From the NCBI GenBank assembly GCA_032718475.1, contig JAUCBJ010001286.1, positions 95,255-159,254 on the forward strand: a stretch of DNA of 64,000 nt, in the 5' to 3' direction. The stretch's first letter is position 1; every line of letters starts with the position of its first letter. This stretch comes from Nemertoderma westbladi. Lineage: Eukaryota > Animalia > Xenacoelomorpha. Below the pieces are notes generated by a model. It worked only from the letters and a program-made list of their open reading frames with translations. It was not told where the DNA came from and made no database searches. This document shows, one piece after another, positions 30,064 through 58,199 of the stretch. The position numbers and the translations under genes are program-made.

Positions 30064-30221
30064 ACTGACTGAAGTTGCGTACCGTAGGCCTGTCTGCCTG
30101 TAGGCCTAATAGAAAACACCTCAACTTCTAAAACTAAACTAAAACTATACCAGTATACGTACGTATACCAGTATACGGTATTATTTCATTCAGTACCGGT
30201 ATTGATGATCGAAGCTGAAAA

Positions 30222-32279: not shown

Positions 32280-34092
32280 TATAATAATAAGACTACAAAT
32301 TAAAGTCACACCAAAATTGATGAAAATTTCACCAAAAAAATTTTATTACACCAATTTATAAAATGTTACCCCAAAAAAAATTATTCAACACCAAATAAAA
32401 TAAAGTAATAAATAAATTTGTCAACACCAAAAACAATTGTTCAACACCAAAAACAATTATTCAACACCAATATTAATAAATGCTCCCCAAAACCAATGAT
32501 TCACACCAAAATAAATGACAAAACCCCCCAAAATAAATACAAATTTTCCCAAAATAAATACAAATTTTCTCAAAGTAAATGCAAATGTTCCCAAAATAAA
32601 TACATAATACCCCAAAATAAATACATAATCCCCCAAAATAAATATATAAAGATAAACCCCCATAATAAATACATAATACCCCTATATAAATACATAATCC
32701 CCCAAAATAAATATATAAACCCCCATAATAAATACATAATCCCCCAAAATAAATTCATAATCCCCCAAAATAAATACTTAATCCCCAAAAATAAATACTT
32801 ATTCCCCCAAAATAAATACATAATCCCCCAAAATAAATACTTATTCCCCCAAAATAAATACATAATCCCCAAAATAAATACTTATTCCCCCAAAATAAAT
32901 ACTTATTCCCCCAAAATAAATACATAATCCCCCAAAATAAATACATAATCCCCCAAAATAAATACATATTCCCCCAAAATAAATACTTATTCCCCCAAAA
33001 TAAATACATAATCCCCCAAAATAAATATATAAAGATAAACCCCCATAATAAATACATAATACCCCTATATAAATACATAATCCCCCAAAATAAATATATT
33101 TTCCCCCAAAATAAATACATAATCCCCCAAAATAAATACATATTCCCCCAAAATAAATGCTTATTCCCCCAAAATAAATACATAATCCCCCAAAATAAAT
33201 TTATAATCCCCCAAAATAAATTCATAATCCCCCAAAATAAATACATAATCCCCCAAAATAAATACATATTCCCCCAAAATAAATGCTTATTCCCCCAAAA
33301 TAAATACATAATCCCCCAAAATAAATTCATAATCCCCCAAAATAAATACATAATCCCCCAAAATAAATACTTATTCGCCCAAAATAATCAAATATTATAC
33401 CAAAATAAAGAGACTCTTGAGTTACAGACTCTCAATTGAAGACTATTATTGTTGACTATTGTTACGTGTATCGTCGGGTGAGTACAAAACAAAGACAAAA
33501 GATCCACTGATTTACTGCCCGTTCTGTACAAAACAAAGAGGTAAAGTCGTATTAGGTCCCAAAGCGCGCTAGGCCCCTGCCATTTAAAGGAACAGGTTAG
33601 TAAAGGAACAGGTTACAAAGGCGTGTTGGGGGAACCAAAACAATAAACGAAAGTTCACATGTTACAAGATTATGAGGGTCTTTATAATTGGGTCTTTGGA
33701 CTTATAAATAATGAATGAATTTGTATAAATAAATTTTCCATAAACTATTTGGTGCTGGAAGAATTGTTGTTGGTTGACAAGTAATTATTTTAGGGAGATT
33801 GAATAATTATTTTTGGGGTGTGAATAATTGTTTTTGGGGGAATGAATAATTGTTTTTGGAGAATGAATAATTGTTTTTGGGGGATTGATAATTGTTTTGG
33901 GGGGATCACTAATTGTTTTTGGGGGATTAATAATTGTTTTGGGGGGATGAATAATTGTTTTTGGTGAGTGAGATATTCAAAATTGGGGGATGTAAATTGG
34001 TGCTACAAAAAAATATATTTGGTGCTAAATAATTTGTTGGTGAGAAATCATCTAATTTGGGGTGGCATTCAATTAGTGGCGTAATAATAATA
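32280..34092. mobile_element. Foldback-like element with internally repetitive (~21-bp) inverted arms
   Basis: Left arm contains (ataatcccccaaaataaatac)n, expanded at 32530-33380; right arm contains (gaataattgtttttggggg)n at 33780-33990; outer ends 32280-32360 and 34015-34092 are diverged reverse complements. Confidence 0.7.
33476..33710 (+). mobile_element. GGGTGA-family MITE-like element inside the foldback element
   Basis: gggtgagtacaaaacaaagac...aaaggaacaggtta...aaccaaaacaataaacga; collinear with 38967-39180. Confidence 0.7.
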
Positions 34093-34813: not shown

Positions 34814-35046
34814 CTATAGCATTGGATCGTCTTCAATGGCCACCGCCGCGTCTTGAGGTATCAAGAAATTGTCCAATCGGTGACGAGTTCTTGCCTCAAT
34901 ATAGTCATATGCATTCGGTGGTTGCCTAACAACACACAGTTTCAAGGCACTTCTATTCACCATCATTGGTGTAATGCTGTACCATTGGTTGGTTAAGTCG
35001 TCATAGAACTCCGATTGGGCTATCGTTGTGTCGCCATCGAAACCAC
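34814..35046 (-). CDS. KLHL10: Kelch-like protein 10 homolog, terminal coding exon
   Basis: tttatag|GT GGT TTC GAT; GGFDGDTTIAQSEFYDDLTNQWYSITPMMVNRSALKLCVV...stop; phase matches exon 41657-41853. Confidence 0.85.
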
Positions 35047-35230: not shown

Positions 35231-37306
35231 CTATCCGTCACTATCAGGCATTTCATCCGTGGCAGCTTCGCTTAGTAGTTCCAACTCTTCTATGGGCTTA
35301 CAAGCGTAACACTCTTCATTTAATTCATCCCAGCATTGACCGCAATACCCAAATGAACAACTTTTGTTTGGACATTTAAAATATTTCGATTTCTTGTTAG
35401 AGCTGTCTCCACAAACCAAACACTTATCCCAACTCGAGCCTATTAGTTTCGTACAAGGTCTCAGAAATGGCAACTCCGACGACAAGGCCATCATAAACGT
35501 ATTATCATGCTCTAGTTTCCTTTTCTTTGCATTTCTCACCAGTCTCTTTATAGCGAACCGGATATAGGTGACTCGCTTTTTTAGAGTCGTGTTATACAGC
35601 CAAAGTATCCGTTGTTTTTCCCGTTTTCTATAAAAGAATGCGCATATCCTGCTTCTGCTCCGCATGAAGTAACGCTCAAGATATTGAAGAACAGCCAAAG
35701 TTGTTAAAAGAATGTAAATTTCTACTAGAATGTGCGTAGCAGTTTGTGCTGGTTTTACCATACACTTGTCATTCGATTCTTGAATGTCTATGGTATATAT
35801 CTGAGTGGGGTCTTTCAGCGCTCCCAATAACTCCCTGAATGTTTCAGCCAAAAACCCTTCCCCCATAACCTTATACTGAAACACATGACGCCCAATAGCC
35901 TCTGTTCCCGTTCTTGTATGCGAATATACCAAATCCATGGCATTGAAAATTAATTTGTCCATAATAACAATGACAGTAACGATAATTACACGAAGAACAA
36001 GCTGCACTACTTGGATCATAAAAGATGTCTTCTCTTTTGCGTTTAATTTAAGACTATAGGGTTCAGTTAAAATTTTCTTCTCCAACTTTCTGAGCGGAAA
36101 TAAGTATCTTGATCCTCTTTCCAACCTTCTTCTATCAATTCTTTCGAAATAATTTGTAATAAAATGATTATCATAGCTGATGTCTTCCATGTAGTTTTTC
36201 TCGTATGTGTAAGCCGAATAGAATATCGTCATAAATACCAACGACATCACAAGTACGAGTACATCTACAACGAGAACGAACCAGGCCTTAACTTGCCGAA
36301 AATAATACTCCAGCTCCATTGCAAAATCAGCGCTAAGTCTGATGTAGAGGTTCTCTGGATTTGTTGTCAACTTGTACAAGATGTTCACCTGTAGTTGAGT
36401 GTCGATTTCCCGTATGGAGTCTCGAGTTTTAACGTAAATATCCGAAATATCAGGCGGAATGTAGGATTCCTCCGGGCAGATAAATTCGATCCAGTACATG
36501 AATCCGCACCAAGGTGCTTTTATGATCGCACATAGGAGAGATGCCGCCCATTCGGGCCAACCTATAGCTGCCATGCACTTCTTGTGCACCCTAGCCAATT
36601 CCTTCTTGCACTTTTTTTTCGCCATTCTAAATATTTTATCACAACTCACTTCCAACTTCTCCTCATATGAATCTATCATGGCCTCTTTATCTTTATAGTC
36701 CCCGTCTTCATCGTGACTATCATCAAATCCTCGTTCGAATTCGTTAATAATCGGAAAGAAATCCTCCTTAAGACCTTCTGTTTTCTCAGCCATGTTTTTG
36801 CTTTTCATCGTAATATTCGCCATAGACAGGAAAAACGGCGCATTAATGAAGTTGAATATAGCTATGGAATGTCGAAATCCCATCTCCGTGGAACACGCTA
36901 TCGAAAAAGCTATAGACTGGAAGTTATTCCCCATATTTACAATGGGGTACTCGATGACCAGTCCAAGAATAACCGTAGCTAACACAGTACGCCCGGCCCG
37001 ACCGCACATGGTGGGTATGAGCAGACAGACTAGGCACCGACAATAGGATGACAGACCTACACCGACGGTAATCGGTACGACTAACGAGTAGAAGATGACG
37101 TCTCTGTAGTACTGAGAGAAAGAAAGATTGAGCATGTAGAGATTGTAGAAAGAGACACCGATAATGTATCCAATAGCCGCCCCGAATATAAGTCTTACGA
37201 TGTAATATATAAAGGATGGCTGTTCCTCAAATATCGTTGTATAGATCGGCGGGATCCAGATGCGCAGCCACAGCTGAAATCGTTCTATTAGCAGTCGGAC
37301 CTTCAT
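35231..37306 (-). CDS. DCST1: DC-STAMP-domain multipass membrane protein (DCST1/Sneaky-like sperm-egg fusion factor), intronless, nested in the kelch gene's last intron
   Basis: Multiple TM segments, Cys-rich ectoloop, YDNHFITNYFERIDRRR..LFPLRKLEK, ICAFFYRKREKQRILWLYN, C-terminal CLVC..C..C..YCGQCW..CYAC RING-like cluster; ATG at 37306. DCST1 versus DCST2 is not certain. Confidence 0.85.
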   Translation of the reverse strand: MKVRLLIERFQLWLRIWIPPIYTTIFEEQPSFIYYIVRLIFGAAIGYIIGVSFYNLYMLNLSFSQYYRDVIFYSLVVPITVGVGLSSYCRCLVCLLIPTMCGRAGRTVLATVILGLVIEYPIVNMGNNFQSIAFSIACSTEMGFRHSIAIFNFINAPFFLSMANITMKSKNMAEKTEGLKEDFFPIINEFERGFDDSHDEDGDYKDKEAMIDSYEEKLEVSCDKIFRMAKKKCKKELARVHKKCMAAIGWPEWAASLLCAIIKAPWCGFMYWIEFICPEESYIPPDISDIYVKTRDSIREIDTQLQVNILYKLTTNPENLYIRLSADFAMELEYYFRQVKAWFVLVVDVLVLVMSLVFMTIFYSAYTYEKNYMEDISYDNHFITNYFERIDRRRLERGSRYLFPLRKLEKKILTEPYSLKLNAKEKTSFMIQVVQLVLRVIIVTVIVIMDKLIFNAMDLVYSHTRTGTEAIGRHVFQYKVMGEGFLAETFRELLGALKDPTQIYTIDIQESNDKCMVKPAQTATHILVEIYILLTTLAVLQYLERYFMRSRSRICAFFYRKREKQRILWLYNTTLKKRVTYIRFAIKRLVRNAKKRKLEHDNTFMMALSSELPFLRPCTKLIGSSWDKCLVCGDSSNKKSKYFKCPNKSCSFGYCGQCWDELNEECYACKPIEELELLSEAATDEMPDSDG

Positions 37307-37405
37307 TGCCACAATAACAGTATTATCTTTTTATGAAACTTATGTCAATATTATTAATCTCATTTAAGTCCCATGTCCTTCACAACAATTAATAAATAAT
37401 ATATA

Positions 37406-39180: not shown

Positions 39181-39487
39181 GGGGGGAGTATCACTGATTT
39201 ACGACACCGTATTCCAGGACATGTGAATTAGATGTTAAACAGCTACCACAAGATAATGTGAAGACGTAGAGCAAAGGATGTGTTCTGAAAGTGGCCACAG
39301 CCTCCACCTTGAACAACCTTCATGAATTCTTAAGGAAGGAATTGCAACACCGGATGGGACTGTGAAGAAAGCAATTGTATGGTCGGGATGAATGCGGTCA
39401 GAAGAACTGCATAAACTAAAGCGGGGTGACATCAAGAAAACGGATTGTGGGTTTGTCATCGTGTTTAGCAGATCGAAGCAAGTTGGT

Positions 39488-41495
39488 GAAATCCATACGG
39501 GTACCACACTGTACTTGTGGTTACTGAGTTGATACTTACTGAAATCCATACGGGTACCACACTGTACTTGTGGTTACTGAGTTGATACTTACTGAAATCC
39601 ATACGGGTACCACACTGTACTTGTGCTTACTGAGTTGATACTTACTGAAATCCATACGGGTACCACACTGTACTTGTGGTTACTGAGTTGGCACATGCTG
39701 AAATCCATACGGGTACCACACTACACTTGTGGTTACTGAGTTGATACTTACTGAAATCCATACGGGTACCCCATTGTACTTGTGGTTACTGAGTTGATAC
39801 TTACTGAAATCCATACGGGTACCACACTGTACTTGTGGTTACTGAGTTGGCACATGCTGAAATCCATACGGGTACCACACTACACTTGTGGTTACTGAGT
39901 TGATACTTACTGAAATCCATACGGGTACCCCATTGTACTTGTGGTTACTGAGTTGATACTTACTGAAATCCATTCGGGTACCACATTGTACTTGTGGTTA
40001 CTGAGTTGATACTTACTGAAATCCATGGGTACCACACTGTACTTGTGGTTACTGAGATGATACTAAATGAAATCCATACGGGTACCACACTGTACTTGTG
40101 GTTACTGAGTTGATACTTACTGAAATCCATTCGGGTACCACATTGTACTTGTGGTTACTGAGTTGATACTTACTGAAATCCATGGGTACCACACTGTACT
40201 TGTGGTTACTGAGATGATACTAAATGAAATCCATACGGGTACCACACTGTACTTGTGGTTACTGAGTTGATACTTACTGAAATCCATACGGGTACCACAC
40301 TGTACTTGTGGTTACTGAGTTGATACTTACTGAAATCCATACGGGCACCACACTGTACTTGTGGTTCCTGAGTTGGCACATACTGAAATCCATACGGGTA
40401 CCACACTGCACTTGTGGTTACTGAGTTGATACTTGCTGAAATCCATACGGGTACCACATTGTACTTGTGGTTACTGAGTTGATACTTACTGAAATCCATA
40501 CGGGTACCACATTGTACTTGTGGTTACTGAGTTGATACTTACTGAAATCCATACGGGTACCACACTGTACTTGTGGTTACTGAGTTGATAATTACTGAAA
40601 TCCATACGGATACCACACTGTACTTGTGGTTACTGAGTTGATACTTACTGAAATCCATACGGGTACCACACTGTACTTGTGGTTACTGAGTTGATACTTA
40701 CTGAAATCCATACGGGTACCACACTGTACTTGTGGTTACTGAGTTGGTACTTACTGAAATCCATACGGGTACCACACTGTACTTGTGGTTACTGAGTTGA
40801 TAATTACTGAAATCCATACGGATACCACACTGTACTTGTGGTTACTGAGTTGATACTTACTGAAATCCATACGGGTACCACACTGTACTTGTGGTTACTG
40901 AGTTGATACTTACTGAAATCCATACGGGTACCACACTGTACTTGTGGTTACTGAGTTGGTACTTACTGAAATCCATACGGGTACCACACTGTACTTGTGG
41001 ATACTGAGTTGATAATTACTGAAATCCATACGGGTACCACACTGTACTTGTGGATACTGAGTTGATAATTACTGAAATCCATAAGGATACCACACTGTAC
41101 TTGTGGTTACTGAGTTGGTACTTACTGAAATCCATACGGGTACCACACTGTACTTGTGGATACTGAGTTGATAATTACTGAAATCCATACGGGTACCACA
41201 CTGTATTTGTGGTTACTGAGTTGGTACTTACTGAAATCCATACGGGTACCACACTGTACTTGTGGTTACTGAGTTGATACTTACTGAAATCCATACGGGT
41301 ACCACACTGTACTTGTGGTTACTGAGTTGATAATTACTGAAATCCATACGGGTACCACACTGTACTTGTGGTTACTGAGTTGATACTTACTGAAATCCAT
41401 ACGGGTACCACACTATACTTGTGGTTACTGAGTTGCTACTTACTGAAATCCATACGGGTACCACACTGTACTTGTGGTTACTGAGTTGATACTTA
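39488..41495. repeat. Intronic 53-bp tandem array (~38 copies)
   Basis: Unit ctgaaatccatacgggtaccacactgtacttgtggttactgagttgatactta, highly homogeneous. Confidence 0.97.
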
Positions 41496-41656
41496 CTTAT
41501 ATTAATATACCAGCGCGGAGGTGTCTTTTTTTAATCGTTGTAATATGCCTAGCAACATGCCGTGAACATGGTGATTGTTGCAGTGAATTTTTCTTAATTA
41601 GGCGTCACCAAATATTGTTTTTCCCCTACTCTATTGGTGAACTGAAAGGAACTGAC

Positions 41657-41853
41657 CTGCGACGAATATTCTGTCTGCCAGTACACATAAACCGAAGTTA
41701 CTGCGTTGGGTTATCATTGGGGGGAGTATTTCCCAGCGGTTACTGCACGGGTTGTATCGTTCCGCCGATCTGAGTCGCGACTCACCATCGTAACCTCCTA
41801 TTATGTAAATCTTCCCTTTATAAACACAGGCTGATAACCCGGATCTGGGACTA
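41657..41853 (-). CDS. KLHL10: KLHL10-like kelch exon
   Basis: ttgcag|..SPRSGLSACVYKGKIYIIGGYDGESRLRSAERYNPCSNRWEILPPMITQRSNFGLCVLADRIFVAG|gtcagt; phases fit neighbouring exons. Confidence 0.9.
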
Positions 41854-42683
41854 CTGCAATGGATAACGCAAACAATTAAAAACAATGAGTAAATTAAAGT
41901 TTTATTCTTCAGTTTGGCTAGGGATTACGCACAAAATCATACGACTAATTTCCAGTGCCCCCCCCCCCCCCCCAGAACTATACTCCCAAGAGGAGACTGG
42001 TGTTAATTTAGCCACAATGCGGTAGAGATGAGGTAGAGAAGCGCCTGGCTAGTCCTTTTAAAGCATTTGTGCCTAAATTTAGACTCCCCCCCCCCCCCCA
42101 TGCGGGGATCGAAACCACGACCTCCGAAGAGTTGAGTATTCAAGGTAACCGATTGTTTTTATACCAAACACAGATGGGGGGGGGGGGGGGGGGGGGGGGG
42201 TCGCAGGGCGCTGGGAAAATATAAGAAAATAACATTGGATTGCCCTATAAAATATAACTGTAACCTAGATGCTATTAACCGCTTATTGTTTTCGTTAGAA
42301 TAACGTACCACTGTAACCTGCTCCTATCCCTAGAGTGGTAATTTAACATTTAGACGAAATATTAATTCGCCGAGTTTTGAAATTAGGAAAGTCAATTATA
42401 AGAATTTAATATTATAAAAATATATGTAATATATACTGTATGAGTATAACGTTGATTTCCAAATCGGAGTTTGTACTCTTTATGATTTAGGGTTATAGAT
42501 TATAGGTTGTTTTGGATTGAATGCGATAAATTTGTATGCGCGTGACTAAATACTTCTCAAATTCCAGATAGGGGCCTACGCGTATTGATAAAGTTATATC
42601 AGGTAACTCATGTTAGTCATATACTTATTTGGTGTAGAAGGGAGTCAGAAAGTGGTGTGTAACCATTTGTGATGTTTAATTAC

Positions 42684-42815
42684 CTCATAGTTGGTAGTGC
42701 CACCCACTCATTTGTTTGCGGCGTATATTTCTCAGCAGTTGGCAAACATTCGTGTCCGTTAAAACCACCAAACATATATATACAGCCATCAAATGCCACA
42801 GCGCAGGAATCGCTC
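42684..42815 (-). CDS. KLHL10: KLHL10-like kelch exon
   Basis: ttttag|G SDSCAVAFDGCIYMFGGFNGHECLPTAEKYTPQTNEWVALPTM AG|gtaatt; 132 nt, phase 2/2. Confidence 0.9.
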
Positions 42816-42924
42816 CTAAAAAATAAACGAGACACGCCTAAATACTTAATATTTACGTATATAATAATGTAAAGAGACTTTTATAATATCGATCAAACTT
42901 GACATCGCAACGTTGGTACACGTA

Positions 42925-45900
42925 CTTATGTTGTGTCCACCACCCACCTAGTATAAATCATACGCTGCACTTGTGTTGTGTCCACAACTCACCTAGTATA
43001 AATCATACGCTGTACTTGTGTTGAGTCCACCCCACCACCCACCTAGTTTAAATAATACGCTGTACTTGTGTTGTGTGCATCACCCACCTAGTATAAATCA
43101 TACGCTGCACTTGTGTTGTGTCCACCACCCATCCACCTAGTATAAATCATACGCTGTACTTGTGTTGAGTCCACCCCACCACCCACCTAGTTTAAATAAT
43201 ACGCTGTACTTGTGTTGTGTGCATCACCCACCTAGTATAAATCATACGCTGTACTTGTGTTGAGTCCACCCCACCACCCACCTAGTTTAAATAATACGCT
43301 GTACTTGTGTTGTGTGCATCACCCACCTAGTATAAATCATACGCTGCACTTGTGTTGTGTCCACCACCCACCCACCTAGTATAAATCATACGCTGCACTT
43401 GTGTTGTGTCCACAACCCACCTAGTATAAATAATACGCTGTACTTGTGTTGTGTGCATCACCCACCTAGTATAAATCATACGCTGCTCTTGTGTTGTGTC
43501 CACCACACACCTAGTACAAATCATACGCTGTACTTGTGTTGTGTCCACCAACAACCACCTAGTTTAAATGATACGCTGCACTTGTGTTGTGTGCATCACC
43601 CACCTAGTATAAATCATACGCTGCACTTGTGTTGTGTCCACCACCCACCCACCTAGTATAAATCATACGCTGCACTTGTGTTGTGTCCACAACCCACCTA
43701 GTATAAATCATACGCTGCACTTGTGTTGTGTCCACCACCCACCCACCTAGTATAAATCATACGCTGCACTTGTGTTGTGTCCACAACCCACCTAGTATAA
43801 ATCATACGCTGCACTTGTGTTGTGTCCACCACCCACCCACCTAGTATAAATCATACGCTGCACTTGTGTTGTGTCCACCACCCACCCACCTAGTATAAAT
43901 CATACGCTGCACTTGTGTTGTGTCCACAACCCACCTAGTATAAATAATACGCTGTACTTGTGTTGTGTGCATCACCCACCTAGTATAAATCATACGCTGC
44001 TATGGTGTTGTGTCCACCACACACCTAGTACAAATCATACGCTGTACTTGTGTTGTGTCCACCAACAACCACCTAGTTTAAATGATACGCTGCACTTGTG
44101 TTGTGTGCATCACCCACCTAGTATAAATCATACGCTGCACTTGTGTTGTGTCCACCACCCCCACTTAGTATAAATCAAACGCAGTACTTGTGTTGTGTCC
44201 ACCCCACCACCCACATAGTATAAATCATACGCTGTACTTGTTGTTGTGTCCATCACCCACCTAGTATAAATCATGCGCTGCACTTGTGTTGTGTCCACCA
44301 CCCACCTAGTATAAATCATACGCTGCACTTGTGTTGTGTCCACCACTCATCCACCTAGTATAAATCATACGCTGCACTTGTGTTGTGTCCACCACCCACC
44401 ACATCGTATAAATCATACGCTGCACTTATGTTGTGTCCACCACCCACCCACCTAGTATAAATCATACGCTGCACTTGTGTTGTGTCCACCACCCATCCAC
44501 CTAGTATAAATCATACGATGCACTTGTGTTGTGTCCACCACCCACCCACCTAGTATAAATAATACGCTGCGCTTGTGTTGTGTCCACCACCCACCCACAT
44601 AGTATAAATCATACGCTGCACTTGTGTTGTGTCCACCACCCACCCACCTAGTATAAATCATACGCTGCACTTGTGTTGTGTCCACCACCCACCCACCTAT
44701 TATATATATTACGCTGCACTTGTGTTGTGTCCACCACCCACCCACCTAGTATAAATATTACGCTGCACTTGTGTTATGTCCACCACCCACCCACCTAGTA
44801 TAAATCATACGCTGCACTTGTGTTGTGTCCACCACCCACCCACCTAGTATAAATCATACGCTGGACTTGTGTTGTGTCCACCACCAACCCACCTAGTATA
44901 AATAATACGCTGCACTTGTGTTGTGTCCACCACCCATCCACCTAGTATAAATCATACGCTGTACTTGTGTTGTGTCCAGTCCACCCCACCACCCACCTAG
45001 TATAAATCATACGCTGCACTTGTGTTGCGTCCACCCCACCACTCACCTAGTATAAATCATACGCTGCACTTGTGTTGTGTCCACCACCAACCCACCTAGT
45101 ATAAATCATACGCTGCACTTGTGTTGTGTCCACCACCAACCCACCTAGTATAAATAATACGCTGGACTTGTGTTGTGTCCACCACCAACCCACCTAGTAT
45201 AAATAATACGCTGCACTTGTGTTGTGTCCACCACCCATCCACCTAGTATAAATCATACGCTGTACTTGTGTTGTGTCCAGTCCACCCCACCACCCACCTA
45301 GTATAAATCATACGCTGCACTTGTGTTGCGTCCACCCCACCACTCACCTAGTATAAATCATACGCTGCACTTGTGTTGTGTCCACCACCAACCCACCTAG
45401 TATAAATCATACGCTGCACTTATGTTGTGTCCACCACCAACCCACCTAGTATAAATAATACGCTGCACTTGTGTTGTGTCCACCACCCATCCACCTAGTA
45501 TAAATCATACGCTGCACTTGTGTTGTGTCCACCACCAACCCACCTAGTATAAATAATACGCTGCACTTGTGTTGTGTCCACCACCCATCCACCTAGTATA
45601 AATCATACGCTGGACTTGTGTTGTGTCCACCACCAACCCACCTAGTATAAATAATACGCTGCACTTGTGTTGTGTCCACCACCCATCCACCTAGTATAAA
45701 TCATACGCTGTACTTGTGTTGTGTCCAGTCCACCCCACCACCCACCTAGTATAAATCATACGCTGCACTTGTGTTGTGTCCACCACCAACCCACCTAGTA
45801 TAAATCATACGCTGCACTTGTGTTGTGTCCACCACCAACCCACCTAGTATAAATCATACGCTGTACTTGTGTTGTGTCCACCACCAACCCACCTAGTATA

Positions 45901-47616
45901 AATCATACGCTGCACTTGTGTTGTGTCCACCACCAACCCACCTAGTATAAATCATACGCTGCACTTGTGTTGTGTCCAGTCCACCCCACCACCCACCTAG
46001 TATAAATCATACGCTGCACTTGTGTTGTGTCCACCACCAACCCACCTAGTATAAATCATACGCTGCACTTGTGTTGTGTCCACCACCCACCCACCTAGTA
46101 TAAATCATACGCTGCACTTGTGTTGTGTCCACCACCAACCCACCTAGTATAAATCATACGCTGCACTTGTGTTGTGTCCACCACCCACCCACCTAGTATA
46201 AATCATACGCTGCACTTGTGTTGTGTCCACCACCCACCCACCTAGTATAAATCATACGCTGCACTTGTGTTGTGTCCACCACCCACCCACCTAGTATAAA
46301 TCATACGCTGCACTTGTGTTGTGTCCACCACCAACCCACCTAGTATAAATCATACGCTGTACTTGTGTTGTGTCCACCACCAACCCACCTAGTATAAATC
46401 ATACGCTGCACTTGTGTTGTGTCCACCACCAACCCACCTAGTATAAATCATACGCTGCACTTGTGTTGTGTCCAGTCCACCCCACCACCCACATAGTATA
46501 AATCATACGCTGGACTTGTGTTGTGTCCACCACCAACCCACCTAGTATAAATAATACGCTGCACTGGTGTTGTGTCCACCACCCATCCACCTAGTATAAA
46601 TCATACGCTGTACTTGTGTTGTGTCCAGTCCACCCCACCACCCACCTAGTATAAATCATACGCTGCACTTGTGTTGTGTCCACCACCAACCCACCTAGTA
46701 TAAATCATACGCTGCACTTGTGTTGTGTCCACCACCAACCCACCTAGTATAAATCATACGCTGCACTTGTGTTGTGTCCACCACCAACCCACCTAGTATA
46801 AATCATACGCTGCACTTGTGTTGTGTCCACCACCAACCCACCTAGTATAAATCATACGCTGCACTTGTGTTGTGTCCACCACCAACCCACCTAGTATAAA
46901 TCATACGCTGCACTTGTGTTGTGTCCACCACCAACCCACCTAGTATAAATAATACGCTGCACTTGTGTTGTGTCCACCACCCATCCACCTAGTATAAATC
47001 ATACGCTGGACTTGTGTTGTGTCCACCACCCACCCACCTAGTATAAATCATACGCTGGACTTGTGTTGTGTCCACCACCAACCCACCTAGTATAAATAAT
47101 ACGCTGCACTTGTGTTGTGTCCACCACCCATCCACCTAGTATAAATCATACGCTGTACTTGTGTTGTGTCCAGTCCACCCCACCACCCACCTAGTATAAA
47201 TCATACGCTGCACTTGTGTTGTGTCCACCACCAACCCACCTAGTATAAATCATACGCTGCACTTGTGTCCACCACCAACCCACCTAGTATAAATAATACG
47301 CTGCACTTGTGTTGTGTCCACCACCCACCCACCTAGTATAAATTATACGCTGCACTTGTGTTGTGTCCACCACCCATCCACCTAGTATAAATCATACGCT
47401 GTACTTGTGTTGTGTCCAGTCCACCCCACCACCCACCTAGTATAAATCATACGCTGCACTTGTGTTGCGTCCACCCCACCACTCACCTAGTATAAATCAT
47501 ACGCTGCACTTGTGTTGTGTCCACCACCAACCCACCTAGTATAAATCATACGCTGCACTTGTGTTGTGTCCACCACCCACCCACCTAGTATAAATCATAC
47601 GCTGCACTTGTGTCCA
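42925..47616. repeat. Intronic ~49-bp tandem array (~95 copies) derived from the kelch exon end plus splice donor
   Basis: Unit cctagtataaatcatacgctgcacttgtgttgtgtccaccacccaccca; the terminal copy overlaps the coding exon at 47585-47616. Confidence 0.97.
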
Positions 47617-47786
47617 CAAGTTGGTGTTAATGTTATATTTTTCCACGTTGTCGTGTCGATGTCTCCCATCGAAACCTCCCAGAGAGTAGATAAAGTTACC
47701 CAATAAAGCGACGCTAACGTAACATCGTCTAAAGTGCATTGGCGCCTTGTTGGTCCATTGTTGTGTCGTTGTATTAAACATCTTAG
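47585..47786 (-). CDS. KLHL10: KLHL10-like kelch exon
   Basis: tcgcag|CT KMFNTTTQQWTNKAPMHFRRCYVSVALLGNFIYSLGGFDGRHRHDNVEKYNINTNLWTQVQRMIYT AG|gtgggt; RRCYVSV is typical of KLHL10. Confidence 0.9.
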
Positions 47787-48200
47787 CTGCGAAACATAAT
47801 ACAGAAGAGTTTATGAGGATTTATAGTTATTACATCAACGTAACAGTAAAAAAACTTGTCTTTAGTGGATTAAAAAAATATATTTAATTTAATACATTAA
47901 AGGAAATGACCAGGTTACAATTGTGGTGTTTTCAAACCAAAACAATAAACGAAAATTTATTTCATATGCGACCAATTTGCGCCGAAGATAACTTGTTTCT
48001 CTTCCGGAACTTTATCTTTACTATCACTGGTTTTACGACAATGTGTGTGTATCGTAATTATAAGTTGATAACTAATATTAGATTTATTGAAATTTATTAA
48101 TAAATTGGGCTGAAATTAAAACGAGAGTTCAATTTAAAATACAGGGAATTATTCAAACCCAATGTTGTTTTATTTATATGGATTTTTTTAATTTTTTTTA

Positions 48201-48859: not shown

Positions 48860-49001
48860 TTGTGCTGAAGTATTCCCCTCTACCATCGAAACCCCCGATT
48901 ATATAAATACATTTTCCTACCACGGCAACCCCATGGTAAGCTCTTGCGTTTCCGTCTAGATTGCCTACAATCCTCCAATGGTCAGCATTTACATCGTACA
49001 C
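48860..49001 (-). CDS. KLHL10: KLHL10-like kelch exon (5'-most exon found in the window)
   Basis: ttctag|VYDVNADHWRIVGNLDGNARAYHGVAVVGKCIYIIGGFDGRGEYFST A|gttagt. Confidence 0.9.
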
Positions 49002-49709
49002 CTAGAAACAAACAAACAAAGGAGGCACGCACTATAAAAACAACGGATGGTAAAGGACCAATATATGTAAGACAACAATCATCCTGAAATTAGTAAAGAA
49101 TGACCTAAAGTCGGCAAGTCGTTGTTAAATAAAATTTAATAAACTAATGAGTTACAGTCATTCCCTTATTACTACGGTTGTTAAAAATATAACCATAACA
49201 TTTTGGTATGTAACCTCACATCTTGGTGTCTCTGGACCCTAAAATTGGGTGGAAATTATTTTTTGTGCAAGTAAACATCGTCAGTGTTGTTTAAACAGCC
49301 AATATTTATAAAATTGGCCCCAAAATGGCTTTGTAATGGGCAAATGTGAATTTTGCCCCAAAGGCTATTTATCCACCAATATTTGTTGGAATATATCGAA
49401 ATTTAGAATATAAGTTCAAAAGACCCTTGCATCAAGGGTCCTAAGGCCTTCAAGGCCTTGTAACTAAATTGCGAAACAAAATTAAAATTAAAGTAGAAAC
49501 GAATTGCGACGACTATGGAGAATCGGGAAGCCTGGAAGGATCTCATTTCCACTGTCCAAGTTCACTCGACAGTAGTAGAGTGTAACCATATAAATATTAA
49601 GATTCATTTCTAAGATTCTAATAAAATTAATTTCTTTGTTTCCTCTGGAGAGTATAGTTCTGGGGGGGGGGGGGGGCACTAGAAAGAAGTTATCACACTT
49701 TGTCCGTAA

Positions 49710-49971
49710 TCCGTGGCCTAACGGCAGAAGAAAATTGAATTTACTTCTTTTGCACAAGTTTCTGTGTACAGGTTAAATTTGCCTGCAGAAACAGTTCCCA
49801 GCAAACCGCGTAATACTTTGATATATTTAAGCATAATTTAAAATGAATTATCATTTTAATATTATGTAAGTAAATAATTCGAGTATTTACAACAATTGTG
49901 AAAATATCAATAAATAATCTGTAATTGTGAATCAACTTTAACAGCGTGAAACACTAATTTGTGGTATAAAT
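49710..49971 (+). repeat. Dispersed repeat; diverged direct copy at 52510-52823, with an inverted relative of the adjoining 49640-49740 segment at 41880-41990
   Basis: ccgtggcctaacggc.gaagaaaattgaa...caggttaaatttgcctgcagaaacagtt...cactaatttgtggtataaata in both copies. Confidence 0.85.
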
Positions 49972-50299
49972 AGTAAATGTATAACACAATTAATTATATT
50001 AAATTGCCTCGATTTGTTATTATCGCCACCGTGATTACGATGGCCTAATTATTCCAAAATTGAATATGTTCATAATGTTTTCTAAAAATATTGCTTTCTT
50101 GCGTCATTGTATAATTTACTCATTTAATTACTATGTACTGTTATATTTATTAACAACCCCCGTTGATATTTCTGATTATCAATATGATTCAATCAATACG
50201 AGTTATTGATTGAATAATTAATAAAATGACCTACTGTACATGTAGGTCATGGAACAACAAATTTTTATTATTATTTTATTTTATTCAATTCGGACTTGC

Positions 50300-52440
50300 C
50301 GACAATAAAAGATAAGATAAAATAAAGTACTGGGAGATGCCCTGCACAAATAAACATATGATATATAGCCAGCTATGCGTGTAGTTATAAAGGAAATTAG
50401 GTTGCACAAATGGTAATACTGCGAAATCAAAACAGTGAGTCAAAATACAGGCCACAGGGGGGCGAGACACAATGAAGTAAAATTAATAGTATATACAAGT
50501 TAAAAAAAAAAGGATAAAATCAGTGAAGTTAAAAATGCCAGCAATCGATCGCAAACGACAGACGACGCAAACGGTGCACAAACCATCTCTTACGCGATAT
50601 TAAAGAAATTAATTATCCGGTCGTGTTTAACACGGAAGGGACCTGAACTGGAATAACAACTACGTATGAATTGTAAAATGATTGATTCTGCAGTAGAGAT
50701 TGACCCAGGATTCATTCGTTTCTGTAGAGAGTTTAAGCTGTAATCGAACGTGAGCAGGGATGACATTTTGGGCCTCGTGAACGCCTTTCTACTTTTCTCG
50801 TAAGTTGAAAACACACCGACGTGTTCCGGATTTTGTCCGATATGAGGAATACGTGATAGTGATCTCATGAGCGATTGCAGGATAATGTTTGGGCAGTCCT
50901 TTACTCGCATTATAGTGCCCATATATACACAAGCGGTAAATTTCAGTCGAAAGCGGTTTACAGCCGACCAGGCGATCAATTATCTGATTGTTAACGTAAG
51001 GTCCAAGAGGAAGAACACCCCGTAAAGCTGAACGATAATAAGAATCAAGACGTTTAATTTCCGCCCTACTCATTGATCTCACTAAATATTTAGCGATGTA
51101 TGTGATCAAGGGAACCGCCACATGTATCCAACTGTGTCACAGTTTAAGTGGCAGGTAGTCCACCAACTTCTGTGGAAAAGGTCTGACGCCTGGGCGATTA
51201 ATTGGATACAGTTCTGGAGGGAGCATGCTATTTGGCTAAAATCGGAAAACCCAGAAAGCTGATCAGTGAGCTTGTTGATAACAAGGTCCCGTTAATGTTT
51301 AAGAACACAGGAAAAGTTTTATCCAAACAACCCTTTCCTAGATGGTAAGACCATTTTGTTTTACTATCCTCCACTTGCAGGTTAACATCGTACAACTCAG
51401 ACGACATCATACTGTAGATATATTCAATATCTTGAGCAGATCGACCAAACAAGAGAACATTGTCTGCGTATGCAATGACGCCAAGCCACAGGAGATAAAG
51501 GTTGAAGTTACAAAGTTCTGCAACCAAGTCTGATAGAGTGCTGGCCGTATACAGAATGTAGAATAAGGGGGACAGCAATGCTCCCTGTTTAGTGCCTCAG
51601 ATCAGTCTAACATCTCTACTATCAATGATTCCGCCAAATTTCAGGAAGATAAATGTTGAGAGATAATAAGAGAGAGTAACTTGACATATGAATGGATTCA
51701 CATGACCAATTAAATTTCGGAATAAATTTAAATATTCCACATTAACAAAGGCATTAGTAATGTTCAGTTGACATACATAGACTGTCTTTCCATTAATCCG
51801 CCGGGCTTCCAGAAATTCAAGAACTGTAGCTACAATAATGTCGGATCCAATTTTACGTTGGTAAGCAAACTGAGAAGGATGAATGAAGCCTGGGAGTGCC
51901 AAGAACTCATGAAGAATGCTGACACTTGCTATTGGACGATACGATTTTGGTGAGAGTCTATCCCGGCCCTTTCCCTTATACAGACTTATAACAGCTGTAT
52001 AACCAAAAACATCTGGAACTTGGCCTAGACTAAACCAGGCATTCATTATGTCTACCAAAACGCGCCCGCTAACTTCAACGCATAATAAATGTTCAACAAC
52101 AAGAGAAAATACGTCTGCTGATTTTCCCTTTACCAACGCAAGAACCGCACGCTTAGCTGTTGTTGGTGAGATAATTGGCAATGTAGAATCAGCATATTTG
52201 GATTCAGCTCTGAGATTAGTACATTAATATCCGCTTCAGTCTTGGGGTCCCGTATATTGTTAGTTGCGAGGTTCTCTCGTATAGACTCTCGAGCAGATTC
52301 TGGAGGGGGAGTGATCTTAGAATTGAGGTTGGACCAAAAATTATTTGGATTTTCTCTCATATACCTACCTTGCTTTTCGTAGAATCGATTCAGACCTGTT
52401 CTTTTTTAGTAGCCAGTTTTTCAGCCGACGTATTGATTGA
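50300..52440 (-). mobile_element. Degenerate 5'-truncated non-LTR retrotransposon (RT pseudogene)
   Basis: SYRPIAS, QFAYQ, NITNAF, QG(A)LLSPLFY, IAYADN spread across several frames. Confidence 0.8.
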
Positions 52441-53229
52441 CCGACGAGACTCGTTTATAGACGGCCCCATAAACAATCTATTGACATTATTGTCATCACA
52501 ACACGATAGCCGTGGCCTAACGGCGGAAGAAAATTGAAGATACTTCTTTTGCAAAAGTTTCTATGTACAGGTTAAATTTGCCTGCAGAAACAGTTACCCG
52601 CTAAACCGTAGTAATGAAAACGATTTAAGTAAATCCGTAGTCAAAAATATTACTTAAAGGTATAATACTTTGATATATTTAAACATAATTTAAAAATGAA
52701 TTATCATTTTAATATTATAATAGTAAATTATGCGAGTACTTACATAAATTGTTAAAATCTCGATAAATAATCTGTAATTCTGAATCAGCTTAACAACGTG
52801 AAGCACTAATTTGTGGTATAAATACATAATATACGTACAACAAAACGAATTCACATCTCTCCGATTTTTTCACCTTTCCATGAGAGGTTACTTACTATAT
52901 AGCTTTGACTTAAATAATTTGCTTTTTCCGTGAGGCCCAGCCAGTGCACCACCACCATCTTGTGCTTTGGCTGTCTTAACAGACACTATCTACATAATAA
53001 TCAAGTAAGGTTCCCCCACTCGTGGCTAGACTATGTATGTGGTTTGCACTGAACTTATCCCTTATCGATTTCAGTTTTTATTTTCCAATTATACCTGAAA
53101 CAACTAGTCCACCAATCACAAGTCAACAATCAATGACGTCACCGATTGGACCAAAGTCTCGCAATTCCGGATCGCAAATTGCAATCCCGGATCCGTTGAC
53201 TGGTTGTACGGATGTGTACGAAGTGCGAT

Positions 53230-53815
53230 AGCCCGGAAAATTTACATCGTATTGATGAGTTTTATAATCAAATAATTTCGGCTATTAAATCTGCCGCTCA
53301 TACTACACTGCCTAAAAAAGCCAAATTTTATTATAGTAAGAATAAACCTACAGTATTCCAGGACGGAATGTATACAATAAAGCTTTTTATGACGAATCTC
53401 GTTTTTATTTTAAACTATAGAGGCGAGCATAACTGTCCGAAGTTTGGTCCTACCTTTAATCAATATACAGTATACGCTCAAAGCGCGCGTTTAAGCGTGT
53501 GATGCGTCCTTGTAAATTAAATTAAAATTAAAATTTGATTAAAATTAAAAAAATTACAAAATTAAATTAAAAAAAAATTAAAATTTGATTAAAAATTTAA
53601 ATTAAAACCGTTTAGCTGAGTCTCTATACAATAATAATATGAATAATTTCTGGTCCAATGTTAAAAAAAAAAGTAACTATCCCTCTTATTTTCTTCAATA
53701 AATATTCATGGTTACATGCCAGCACCACTTATTGTAAGTTATATTATTCCTCTAGTCAAGGATAAAAACGACGATATTACTGATTCAGATAATTATCGTG
53801 GAATATCGACCACCG
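53230..53815 (+). pseudogene. Small degenerate LINE ORF2 fragment
   Basis: IDEFYNQIISAIKSAAHTTLP; IIPLVKDKNDDITDSDNYRGIS (start of RT). Confidence 0.65.
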
Positions 53816-55382
53816 CTATTCCTATTCGAATACACTATTCGAATAAACTAAAAAATATTCCTAATAGTGTTCTGCATAAAATATTACTATTATTATACTG
53901 AATAAAATATTGCTAATTTTTTTTTTAAATAGGCCCATTCCTAATATTTTCAGAAAACTATTCCTAATCGTATTCCTAATACATTCCTAACAGAAAATAT
54001 TTTAGGCAGAAAGAGATTGACATTAACTGTTATTTTTTTCTCAATGTAGAAATTAGATGATAAAAAATACAAATAGGCCCTACATTGAGAAAAAAATAAA
54101 ATAAAATGTATGCCATAATCAGCTCATCCCTTTGGCCTTTGCGGCACCCATTACATGTGAGGGTTTGTGGGTTTGGGTTGTTTGTTATTCTATTGCGAAC
54201 CGTTAAGAGGATGTACCGTTAGTCAAATTAAATTGTTCCTGAAAATGGAATGTCCTTGAACTGCGTCATCGGTTTTAAGAAGAAGGCGTTGTTGTGTGAA
54301 TGAACTGCTCATACCAATATCTAATGCACAGCATTTTAGCCAGCAGGGTTTACTTAGCCTGTGTGCCTGGATCGGCCTTATTATAAGAGTTTCTCTGATT
54401 GGCTTATTCCACAACACATGATACATAAATCAAGCCCTCCAATTGGGTAATGAAACTGCTGATCTAAACAACCCAATATTTTAATTGCATTCATTCAATG
54501 TCCTTATAAAGTTTGTTTGGGTGCGTCGGGGTCATTATCCTAGAGTTTGAGTACAAACTTTATTGTTAAATTAAGCATTGATTGAGGTTTATACCTGTAT
54601 ATTTGTTTTATTTGTATATCAGTTACGGGTCGGCTATCTGTTTCATCCGTTGCTGAAGCCTATGCATATAATATAGGAAATAAAAAAGGCTATAAATAGG
54701 GATAAATAGGAAAACAGGCAGAAAACATGCAGACATGGTAATTGTTTAATGTGAAGTGAATGCTAACTGTTTATTTAGTGTGTGAGGCGAGACACATAGT
54801 GGGCGAATCCTGAATATATATTATTATATTATACGGGTGGAGAATCCATTGTCACAGAAGCAGAAGCGTATAACAAAAACAAAGATATATCGAAGATATT
54901 CGAAAAAAAATGTGAAAAAAAAAGAAAAAATGTGAAATTAACCAGGAAATATTGCAAAACGACTCATCAGTTTAGCCTTCTTATATACCGGTACTTGTTG
55001 GTTGTTGCCTTCTGTCTGTCCTCGTGCACTACAGCACTATGATTCATTCTGTCAATGTCAGGTCAGAGTTTGTTCTTGCAAAAGGATTTCCATAGTTGAT
55101 CCACTGCTCCGCAGGCCTCAGCCAGTGTTCTTTCTTGCTGGGTTGTTTTGTTATTCCGAAATTATCAGTATTATAGGCTGCTGAGAGACTGTGCCAGAAC
55201 CAGATACCTGGATTGCTGGATAATGTCTTTAAACGGCAAATTTTTCTATGTGAAGAAAATAGCCATAATATCGTAGTCTTATTTTAATTGTCTGTCTATC
55301 TATATCTCCTGTCAGTATGTATATATTATTATGTGCGTGGTATAACACTCAACACTGGCTGACTGGTGTCAGGCGAGTTACT

Positions 55383-57040
55383 TATTAATATATTATTAAT
55401 CAACGATCGGGCTACTTAAAGCCCCTGTTGTACATATACATACATAATATTATCAACAATTTCAGTAAATTAAACATTTCCAATAGACAGTATACAGTAG
55501 TTAGCTAACAGTTGCACGTAATTTAAATGCATGAAAAATATATCGCGCAATATTCAAAACTTTAGTAGGATCGTCAGTTTGCATTAATTCAATAAATTTT
55601 AAAAAATTCGGGAAAACCATATATCTCATACCCAAGTATCTGCACCGCAGGCTGTGATAAAAAGTGCAACCTAATAGAAAATGGTACTCGTCTTCTACTA
55701 AATTACAATCGCACATATTGCAAATTCGCTGGTCCCTAGCTATACCGTACCATCGTCCCGTTTCAATACTCAGCCCGTGTGATGAGCATCTAAATTGCGC
55801 AAAAAGCCGGCGCAACGCTAAATGATTACTCAATATGTAAATGTAAGTAGAGGGTTTGAATGTTTCCTTTATATAAAATCTTCCTTTTGGGGACGATGCT
55901 ACTTCTGATCTCCAAAATTGCACAAACTGATCAGTGATACGTTGCTTTACATTGAATAGAAAAGTATTAACACTATTACCTACATCCTGATTTTGCCAAG
56001 CCCAACTAAATCCTAAATCATTTAGTATTCCTCTTAATTGCACAACCCAACTTTTTGGCGTTAAATGACTACTACTACTATCTAGTACGTTATTCAAATC
56101 ATTGCACAACATTAAATAAGCCTGTTTCACCAACCTAGTATTTGGTAGATTAATAATTCTGGTCCAATACTTAACTAATCTGAATCGACGTTCGAAAATA
56201 AGTGGTAATTGACCTGTCTCTCCATATACTGCAAAATTTGGAGTAGTTTTTTTAACACCCAGAAAATTTTTCAGAAACCGTAGGTGTACCCTTTCTACAT
56301 CATCAGCTGTATCAAAACCCCAAATTTCAGCACCGTACATTAAAATAGGTTTCACTAAAGTGTTGAATAAATTTATAGCACAATCGAAAGTAGCATGGGG
56401 AAATCGTACAAAGTATTTTAGTAAAGAAAAATATGCTCTACTACCTCGTTCTGCAATGTTACTTTGAGCAATATAAAATTTTCCAGATACCGTGAAGATA
56501 ATACCTAAATATGTATACTGATTAATTTTTGGCATCACTTTGTTATTGTAGTAAAATTGCACCGCCGATGGACGACCTTTGTGACCAAAAACAACAACAT
56601 TAGATTTATCTAAGTTTACTTCCAAGCACCAATATTTACAATAAAATTCTAGAATTATTAGGGATTGCTGTAAAGCTGCCTCAGTCTCTGCCAATATAAC
56701 GATGTCGTCTGCAAATAGCAATAAGAATAATTTCATCGTACCAACATCTATACCTTCAATGCCACCTTGTCTTAATTCGTTTTCCAAATCATTAATAAAA
56801 ATACTGAACAAAAAGGGTGATAAGCTCTCACCTTGTCTTACTCCTATAGATACTAAAAATGTTTCTGACAATTTACCATCTACTTTTACACATGACTTTA
56901 CACTACTATACATATTCTTAATAACATTTAGCATTTTGCCACCCGCACCTAGATTGATTAATTTCAACCATAAAGCTGCACGACTAACTGAATCGAATGC
57001 CTTTTTCAGGTCAATAAAAGCACAATATAATTTTTTCTTA
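55383..57040 (-). mobile_element. 5'-truncated, recent non-LTR retrotransposon with an open RT + C-terminal CCHC frame
   Basis: FIDLKKAFDSV, GVRQGESLSPFLF, LFADD, CNMCDCNLVEDEYHFLLGC; stop at 55501; AT-rich tail; 9-bp TSD CGAGTTACT at 55374-55382 and 57041-57049. Confidence 0.92.
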
Positions 57041-58199
57041 CGAGTTACTGAGTTACAGTTAATGTAATGGAACGATGCCTTTCGTGGCGCAAGCAGGCAA
57101 GTATACTCAAATGGTCAAATGGTTTAAATTTTCTAAATTATTTGAAACGTACGTACGGGTACGGTAGGCCTACCAGTACAGTGTACTGTTGGCGTACATA
57201 ACTCAGGCCTATATATCTCACAGTTTCCTTTATAACTATTTTAAGTCATATTGGTCAGTTTGTCTTTCTGTCAGTTAGTTGTTTTATATCAATTAAATTA
57301 AATATGCCTAAATTTGTTTTTAACCTGGTACCAGGCACAGACAGATTGTATGGTAAATCATGTTTTTAAATAAATGTATAGACCTATTTTAAGTTTATAT
57401 GAAATTGGTTCACATACAGACATAGGCCTATATTATTTTTTATCGAGGCCTAATTTATTTTTAACCATGACACTCAGACTCAATTTTGACATACCTTCTT
57501 GTTAGCTAATTCTTACAGTCAGGTCAGACAGTAACAGTAGAGCAGTAGAGTAGGCCTACATGGCCTATAATATAAATTAAATTTAATGTTGTTTATATAA
57601 AAAGATAGCTTGGTCAATTTTGAAATTATTTTAACTCTACCTATATCATGTCCATGTCATGTACATAACTTCTGAACTTAGGCCTATTTAACTAACAGTT
57701 TCCACATTTTTCAACTCATTGCAGCATTAAGCAGTTAAGGTCAATGTCAATGTCAGAATGTATTATTGTAATTTGTGATTATTTATTTTATTGCATGGGT
57801 CTGTGGGTATTCTCAATCTCAATGAAGTTGTTAGGTTAGGCAGTTAGCTGGTTAGTCATACCGTACGACTGTACTACCATCATGTTGCATGTGAGGAGGT
57901 GTTTATCTCTACTTCCTGACTTCCGAGAAACTTAATAACCGCATTACGTACCGGTAGTCTAACAATAAAACAATATTATTTATGGTAATTGGATGGATAT
58001 ATATATCTATATATTGGTAGTGTTGTTTTAAAGTTTTTATAGTGTTAATTGTAAATGTAATATTATTGAAAATTAATAGCGGAAAACCTGGTATCAGGGT
58101 ATCATATACCAGTACTGCAGTATACCTACTGGCTAGGCCTACTGCACGAATTTTATGATTTTATGGCGAACCTCGACTTAGATATATATAAAATTGTAT

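What the first reader, a model, noticed from the sequence alone, without database searches (positions are those of the whole stretch)
42925..47616. A KLHL10 intron built from ~95 tandem copies of its own exon end + 5' splice site
Seen: on the transcribed (minus) strand each ~49-nt unit is the last ~30 nt of the coding exon (ACACAAGTGCAGCGTATGATTTATACTAG) followed by the real donor GTGGGT and a G-rich tract. The array makes up almost the whole 4.77-kb intron. Reading through the first donor reaches an in-frame TAG within one unit (..YTRWVGGGHNTSAAYDLY*), so any downstream donor gives a premature stop. The spliceosome must therefore pick the first of ~95 near-identical donors. Inference: each TAG|GT junction could also act as a recursive-splicing point, and the GGGTGGGTGG tracts could form G-quadruplexes or bind hnRNP H/F. 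Known parallel: satellite-expanded introns in Drosophila spermatogenesis genes; KLHL10 is a spermatid Cul3 adaptor. Array length might tune expression.
Basis: partly seen in the sequence, partly recalled or inferred. Interest (0 to 1): 0.78.

Follow-up and report, generated by a model that had tools for sequence, protein, structure and literature searches.

The report
Splice-donor minisatellite in KLHL10-like intron
In an animal's KLHL10-like gene, the end of one exon and its splice signal occur 96 times in a row into the next intron, yet the one assembled transcript contains none of the extra copies, so this is likely a tolerated example of a repeat type already known from lancelets, chickens and human genes.

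Summary
A 49-bp array of 96 donor-equivalents, 91 of them TAG|GT, fills 98% of a 4,769-nt intron. Only donor 1 gives an open, gap-free KLHL10-like protein. All 95 downstream donors end at one premature TAG. The repeat is present in DNA runs of two samples, and its 3' edge differs between them. One run that behaves as RNA holds a 1,990-nt spliced contig joining the exon at donor 1 to the next exon, with no array-specific sequence. The class is published: lancelet 'mirages', human F7, IFI6, CBS, LMNB2 and PDGF minisatellites, and chicken exon stuttering. In F7 the most upstream donor wins by position. Recursive splicing, three-tier G-quadruplexes and the Drosophila giant-intron parallel are unsupported. 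This scan noted the same thing before on other DNA, including many other genes of this genome (unchecked notes), which argues against a role specific to KLHL10. Verdict: a new member of a known kind, likely neutral. Rare donor use hidden by nonsense-mediated decay (NMD) is untested.

The parts
42922..47617 (-). Minisatellite of 96 donor-equivalents (44-55-nt units, mostly 49); the first unit spans the exon B / intron boundary
47585..47786 (-). Exon B (202 nt, kelch repeat); its last ~33 nt are the source of the unit
   Evidence: the X4 contig fits 47584-47786 with 0 differences
47579..47587 (-). Authentic donor TAG|GTGGGT (donor 1); codon phase 2 within Arg of YTR|SD
47536..47538 (-). In-frame TAG at the end of copy 2, the premature stop for all 95 downstream donors
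42816..47584 (-). Host intron B-C, 4,769 nt
42816..42947 (-). 132 nt from the last donor copy to the true acceptor (unique tail, T-rich, ends TTTTAG); likely about the size of the ancestral intron
   Evidence: size inferred
42684..42815 (-). Exon C (132 nt, kelch)
48860..49001 (-). Exon A (142 nt, kelch), first exon of the gene found in the window
   Evidence: X4 loose end
41657..41853 (-). Exon D (197 nt, kelch)
34814..35046 (-). Exon E coding part, to the stop codon
   Evidence: X4 loose end

Best explanation
This is a 96-copy minisatellite whose first unit spans the exon end and splice donor of a KLHL10-like gene; it likely arose as a mutational by-product and is likely tolerated because the spliceosome commits to the first donor by position, with NMD predicted to remove any rare slips. 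Shown: unit structure, reading frame, premature stop, presence in two samples, and a spliced contig free of array sequence. Inferred origin: a ~44-nt piece (33 nt of exon, ~11 nt of intron) was duplicated at a short shared GTGG/TGG, gained a 5-nt internal duplication, and was amplified by slippage or unequal exchange, enlarging a ~130-nt intron about 36-fold. The exon-side copy cannot change without breaking the protein, so growth is one-sided, into the intron. Inferred splicing: exon definition or 5'-to-3' first-come choice, as tested for human F7. Donors 2-5 would give exons of 251, 300, 350 and 405 nt instead of 202.
For: The five-exon model is open and aligns without a gap across the junction to 4 of 4 homologs at donor 1. 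Run X4 holds one 1,990-nt contig (depth 42.8) that runs exon A-B-C-D-E. It shares the exonic alleles of DNA runs X2/X3 and has zero depth over the three array-specific bins 47520-47582. DNA runs X1, X2 and X3 show far higher summed depth on the unit than on the flank, and X1 and X2 show go-back joints. Sample S2 differs by about 3% in flanking introns and has an extra, degenerate 36-nt unit at the 3' edge. Turnover pattern: 16 distinct units among the first 56, 23 among the last 39, and three repeated 4-unit blocks. There is no excess conservation of AG|GT: 2 variant alleles against 3.3 expected, P=0.36. A second array in the same gene carries 26 GTAAGT motifs and is also bypassed by the X4 contig. 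In F7 minigenes only the most upstream donor was used, even against GTGAGT-strength downstream sites (PMC1557585).
Against: The RNA evidence is one contig from one run listed as 'DNA?'; contigs drop rare variants and the tissue is unknown. Exon and unit share 29 nt plus the next G. If the assembly word is 31 (recalled for Logan; the index word is 31 per the tool text), no single word tells donor 1 from donor n, so the call rests on the unbroken contig and the absence of array words. Steady-state RNA cannot separate 'never used' from 'used and degraded'. In IFI6 and CBS two pseudo-sites are used as well (PMC1557585 Introduction). An unchecked scan note reports use of an internal copy at GALNS in this genome. 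F7 tested at most nine copies in mammalian cells. Neutrality itself is not tested; the conservation test has low power (35 columns).
Confidence: 0.8

Rival explanations
1. Leaky-donor rheostat: a regulated share of transcripts uses donor 2, 3 (GTGAGT) or later, is destroyed by NMD, and so array length or variant order would tune KLHL10 dose.
For: All 95 alternative donors give the same premature stop, with two or more introns downstream. Copy 3 scores slightly better against U1 than donor 1 (7.5 vs 7.0 on a crude count). IFI6 and CBS use two extra sites (PMC1557585 Introduction). The array differs between samples.
Against: No array-specific sequence in X4. F7 pseudo-sites of GTGAGT strength did not compete. 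The stop is simply the exon's own T-A-G read out of frame. Unchecked scan notes place such arrays in many housekeeping genes of this genome, so no sperm-specific logic is needed.
Confidence: 0.12
2. Recursive-splicing ladder: the intron would be removed stepwise through TAG|GT junctions, each unit acting as a ~49-nt cryptic exon.
For: 91 of 96 junctions are TAG|GT. Spacing equals the ~50-nt cryptic exon of Drosophila ratchet points (PMC8605326 passages). The final mRNA would look the same as single-step splicing.
Against: The 20 nt before the unit's TAG hold 10 pyrimidines and 7 T, against 12-17 and 10-13 for 5 of 5 real acceptors and a mean of 9.8 pyrimidines for 99 background YAGs. There is also an AG at -19, which none of the 5 real acceptors has within that stretch. 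AG|GT shows no excess conservation. TAG|GT follows from the codons YTR plus an ordinary donor. A 4.8-kb intron is shorter than the 6.6-kb last intron of the same gene.
Confidence: 0.05
3. The intron itself was created by tandem duplication of an exonic AG|GT proto-splice site (the intron-gain model of Rogers).
For: The unit holds AG|GT, and mirages were proposed as a route to new introns (PMC3087553).
Against: The acceptor is not the last copy's AG. It lies after about 105 nt of unique T-rich sequence, and exon C does not begin with the unit's GTGG.
Confidence: 0.02
4. Assembly artefact.
For: The copy number rests on one assembly; no long reads were available.
Against: 38 distinct units in ordered blocks. 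Unit variants and go-back joints are seen in the contigs of an independent sample.
Confidence: 0.01

Closest known systems
Human F7 IVS7 37-bp VNTR, with IFI6 (6-16), CBS IVS13, LMNB2 and PDGF intron 4 minisatellites (PMC1557585; abstract, passages and whole Discussion read)
   Same: The first monomer spans the exon-intron boundary and identical donors are repeated into the intron. The F7 donor is also /GTGGGT. The most upstream donor is used.
   Different: 5-25 copies there against 96 here. Mammalian and tested with minigenes there; here an invertebrate with one RNA contig. IFI6 and CBS leak to two extra sites, which is unmeasured here.
Lancelet 'mirage' minisatellites: Adh3, globins BflGb6/BflGb9, troponin C, PGBD5 (PMC3087553 and PMC3902484; passages read)
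   Same: Invertebrate tandem duplications of exon-intron boundaries. Units of 10-160 bp, unstable length, concerted evolution, and normal splicing kept.
   Different: The copy numbers given in the passages read are 2-6; this array has 96.
Chicken dot-chromosome 'exon stuttering' (PMC12954441; abstract, passages and first part of Discussion read)
   Same: Local expansion of an exon edge with its splice site into the adjacent intron, spanning 112-23,555 bp and variable between individuals.
   Different: 1-44 detected copies, and tied to GC-rich dot chromosomes. Here the window is mostly about 33-48% GC and the array about 45%.
Drosophila intronic ratchet points (PMC8605326; abstract and passages read)
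   Same: Juxtaposed AG|GT with a second donor about 50 nt downstream.
   Different: Ratchet points have ultraconserved motifs and a working acceptor in long introns. Here the acceptor context is background-like and no conservation excess is seen.
Drosophila Y-linked intron gigantism (PMC6508621; search listing and abstract start only)
   Same: Repeat-filled intron in a gene whose homologs act in sperm.
   Different: Megabase introns against 4.8 kb. Testis expression is not shown here.

Membership tests
Exon-boundary minisatellite (mirage / F7 class / exon stuttering) | Head-to-tail minisatellite with units of tens of bp | tested here: met
   44-55-nt units, 95.8 copies
Exon-boundary minisatellite (mirage / F7 class / exon stuttering) | First unit spans a real exon-intron boundary of the host gene | tested here: met
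Exon-boundary minisatellite (mirage / F7 class / exon stuttering) | Local origin from the adjacent exon; splice signal repeated | tested here: met
   47 of 95 copies match the exon's last 29 nt; no match of the unit in the window outside this array and the 53-bp array's span (both left out of the count); rest of genome not held
Exon-boundary minisatellite (mirage / F7 class / exon stuttering) | Normal splicing kept at the exon-proximal site | tested here: met
   One spliced contig in run X4, no array-specific depth; minor forms not visible in contigs
Exon-boundary minisatellite (mirage / F7 class / exon stuttering) | Length polymorphism among individuals | tested here: inconclusive
   3' edge differs by one degenerate unit in sample S2; total length not measurable from contigs
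Recursive-splicing ratchet point | Juxtaposed AG|GT with a downstream donor about 50 nt away | tested here: met
   91 of 96 TAG|GT, spacing 44-55 nt
Recursive-splicing ratchet point | Acceptor-like context upstream of the AG | tested here: not met
   10 of 20 pyrimidines vs 12-17 in 5 real acceptors, background 9.8; AG at -19
Recursive-splicing ratchet point | Motif conserved above its neighbours | tested here: inconclusive
   Within the array 2 alleles vs 3.3 expected, P=0.36, low power; no related species available
Recursive-splicing ratchet point | Intermediates or lariats in nascent RNA | not testable with these tools
   Only contigs available
Canonical three-tier RNA G-quadruplex | Four G3+ tracts with loops of 1-7 (or 1-12) nt | tested here: not met
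   0 matches; 81 two-tier matches; G4Hunter of 1.2 or more in 3.9% of 25-nt windows
Drosophila intron gigantism | Megabase-scale intron | tested here: not met
   4,769 nt vs abstract of PMC6508621
Intron gain by tandem duplication | Last copy's AG serves as the acceptor | tested here: not met
   The acceptor lies in a unique tail 132 nt after the last donor
KLHL10 | Kelch propeller closest to KLHL10 | tested here: met
   13 of 16 hits named KLHL10/KLH10, 1 hypothetical, 2-3 unnamed; 38-46% identity over about 280 aa; no tree against other kelch families was built
KLHL10 | BTB/BACK half and testis expression | not testable with these tools
   No BTB/BACK exon in the window; the X4 contig has about 900 more nt upstream of exon A; tissue unknown

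The most novel reading that the evidence does not exclude
The 96 TAG|GT junctions form a working decoy ladder. Downstream donors or stepwise resplicing divert part of the transcripts to NMD, so a polymorphic array length sets the dose of a sperm ubiquitin-ligase adaptor, in a genome that amplifies splice junctions at unusual scale.
Probability: 0.08. Interest if true: 0.7.

Novelty: new member of a known kind. Interest (0 to 1): 0.2.

Why it matters
As a single locus it is ordinary. It extends a known repeat class to 96 copies in an unidentified invertebrate and shows that first-donor choice survives that load in the one transcript seen. Its practical value is as a test case for 5' splice-site choice: position against strength, with four GTGAGT decoys, one only 98 nt downstream. 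If the unchecked scan notes are right that many genes of this genome carry such arrays, the genome-wide habit is the interesting question, not this gene.

Tried and rejected
No whole genome is held, so no genome-wide scan or base rate was possible. The run search listed no holder on record as RNA, which is no evidence either way; one listed run turned out to hold spliced contigs. Depth ratios over the array were not used as copy numbers: the tool says summed contig depth is not one, and flank depth in X1 ranges from 5.5 to 31. The apparent X4 joint 42814-42947 was rejected as use of the last donor, because its loose end continues into unique exon B. The idea that the 49-, 53-, 23- and 21-bp arrays share ancestry was tested: the best P values were 0.02-0.03 among 8 comparisons (3 of 8 below 0.05, none surviving correction), so it was rejected. 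An early idea of a 10-nt microhomology seed was dropped once the S2 edge showed that this stretch is exon-derived. Upstream BTB/BACK exons were sought by tblastn and by an HMM of 14 of the 16 homologs, and none was found in the window. The host could not be placed beyond 'animal, probably invertebrate' (lipin best hits 46-51%). A tyrosine-recombinase-like reading beside the 53-bp array (resemblance recalled) got no Pfam hit. X4 lacks cover of the nested DC-STAMP-like ORF; that is not evidence of silence. PMC10078293 (passages) gave nothing specific. Paper searches with no or unhelpful results. No supplements were read; those of PMC12954441 could hold higher copy numbers.

Full report
Observation. 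TRF finds 42940-47613, period 49, 95.8 copies. Cutting at the donor-equivalent gives 96 sites: 91 TAG|GT (71 GTGGGT, 12 GTGGAT, 4 GTGAGT, 2 GTGGTT, 2 GTGTGT) and 5 with the -1 G changed; all keep GT. The 95 units are 44-55 nt and fall into 38 distinct sequences. Four long arrays cover 16% of the window, so this DNA is rich in minisatellites.

Host gene. Minus-strand exons 49001-48860, 47786-47585, 42815-42684, 41853-41657 and 35046-34814 join into 301 codons and a stop. They align at 38-46% identity to 4 of 4 KLHL10 homologs tried, with no gap at the YTR|SD junction. Four of the five exons hit Pfam Kelch_1. Of 16 hits to exon B, 13 are named KLHL10/KLH10. The BTB/BACK half is not in the window, and orthology was not tested by a tree. 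The host is an animal without close relatives in the protein database, probably an invertebrate; no genome is held. That KLHL10 acts in sperm development comes from abstract starts only (PMC1976628, PMC8568611); its role as a Cul3 adaptor is recalled.

Consequence of using later donors. The intron is 4,769 nt and 98% array. All 95 downstream donors carry the transcript through the same in-frame TAG at the end of copy 2, including the 34 that keep frame by length. Two more introns follow, so NMD is predicted (established knowledge, not tested).

Independent data. Six runs were listed, none on record as RNA; four were laid on the two flanks. DNA contigs of X1 (possibly the source) and of X2/X3 (another sample, S2) show unit variants, summed depth far above the flank, and go-back joints in X1 and X2. 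S2 differs by about 3% in the flanking introns (12 of 365, 9 of 270 and 8 of about 304 letters in X2 pieces) and has an extra degenerate 36-nt unit, with its own donor, at the 3' edge. The array is therefore shared by divergent haplotypes and differs between them at least at that edge. Run X4, listed as 'DNA?', behaves as RNA. One 1,990-nt contig (depth 42.8) fits exon B exactly. Its loose ends are the end of exon A and the start of exon C, and it skips the 830-nt C-D intron and runs on into exon E. It shares S2's exonic alleles and has no depth on the array-specific bins. Limits: one contig, unknown tissue, rare forms dropped, and exon and unit share 30 letters across the junction. The inference therefore rests on the unbroken contig and the missing array words.

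Mechanism. Origin (inferred): the unit is about 33 nt of exon with a 5-nt internal duplication plus about 11-12 nt of intron. One 44-nt copy lacks the duplication, and the S2 edge runs from a donor straight into the unique tail. This fits duplication of a ~44-nt piece at a short shared GTGG/TGG, then amplification by slippage or unequal exchange. The 5' part is more homogeneous (16 distinct of 56 units, against 23 of 39) and has three repeated 4-unit blocks. From the last donor to the acceptor is 132 nt, likely about the ancestral intron. Splicing (product shown once, cause inferred): the exon-proximal donor wins by position. [quoted passage not shown] This held even when downstream sites were raised to GTGAGT strength, and only perfect-consensus sites shifted use (PMC1557585). 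The same paper lists IFI6, CBS, LMNB2 and PDGF, and reports that IFI6 and CBS also use two pseudo-sites, so leakage here is possible. As an internal control, a 53-bp array in the last intron has 26 GTAAGT motifs starting about 160 nt after donor D, and the X4 contig bypasses them.

Recursive splicing has the right geometry (about 50-nt spacing; PMC8605326). But the 20 nt before the unit's TAG hold 10 pyrimidines, equal to background (9.8, n=99) and below all five real acceptors (12-17), with an AG at -19. AG|GT columns are no more conserved than others: 13 of 35 columns are invariant, P=0.36, with low power. There are no three-tier G-quadruplex motifs; 81 two-tier motifs exist, and ViennaRNA with G-quadruplexes allowed places two-tier ones in the one stretch folded. 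hnRNP H/F binding was not tested. Drosophila intron gigantism concerns megabase introns (abstract start of PMC6508621).

Known class. Lancelet 'mirages' are tandem repeats spanning exon-intron boundaries, unstable in length and not disturbing splicing (PMC3087553; PMC3902484). Chicken exon stuttering covers 236 introns, with 1-44 copies and spans up to 23.6 kb (PMC12954441). This locus meets four of five defining features; length polymorphism is inconclusive. Its 96 copies exceed the numbers in the passages I read.

Earlier scan notes. These are unchecked leads. The look-ups report 79 notes in this genome, of which 64 and 62 fit my two sets of words. I saw 16, all describing donor- or acceptor-spanning arrays in other genes, several far larger, and similar ones in other genomes. 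They pointed me to the mirage and stuttering papers, which I read. If true, they argue against a function specific to KLHL10 or sperm. One note reports use of an internal copy at GALNS, which cuts against strict first-donor use.

Verdict. Observation confirmed; interpretation partly supported. A new member of a known kind, most likely a tolerated mutational by-product (0.8). Leaky-donor regulation 0.12, recursive ladder 0.05. Interest 0.2.

Noticed in passing
window 39487-41497: Second array (53 bp x 38) in the last intron of the same gene. On the transcribed strand 25 of 38 unit borders read TCA|GTAAGT, a consensus donor not derived from an exon end; the X4 contig bypasses it.
   Followed up: partly
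window 35231-37330 (-): Uninterrupted ORF of about 690 aa with a DC-STAMP-like domain (PF07782, E 1.8e-45), nested on the same strand inside the last intron of the KLHL10-like gene. It has a Cys-rich C-terminus; relation to sperm-fusion DCST/sneaky proteins is recalled, not tested.
   Followed up: partly
window 49001-64000: No BTB/BACK exons were found in the 15 kb upstream of exon A, although the X4 contig has about 900 more nt. The lipin gene (60766-63655, +) may sit antisense inside a long upstream intron.
   Followed up: partly
window 8744-9547, 12067-13083, 30219-31232, 60766-63655: Several host genes appear intronless or nearly so (SDR, NSRP1-like, DHHC, lipin in two large pieces), unlike the kelch gene.
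   Followed up: no
window 1-2545 and 32506-33387: Two more long minisatellites (23 bp with ~90-bp higher order; 21 bp). No tested link to the 49-bp unit survived correction.
   Followed up: partly
window 47919-47980 and 42270-42370: Short elements with very high summed depth in all three DNA runs (tens of thousands or more), likely ends of abundant small transposons.
   Followed up: no
window 18084-26847 (+): BEL/Pao-type LTR retrotransposon (DUF1759, Peptidase_A17). ORFs at 14586-15795 recur identically at 26894-28109, suggesting long direct repeats around it.
   Followed up: partly
window 55501-57114 (-): 537-aa reverse transcriptase ORF of a LINE-like element (RVT_1); further degraded RT fragments at about 50600-52200 and 5400-8100.
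   Followed up: no
window 47982: The X1 contig (possible source run) lacks one base relative to the window: an allele or an assembly difference.
   Followed up: no
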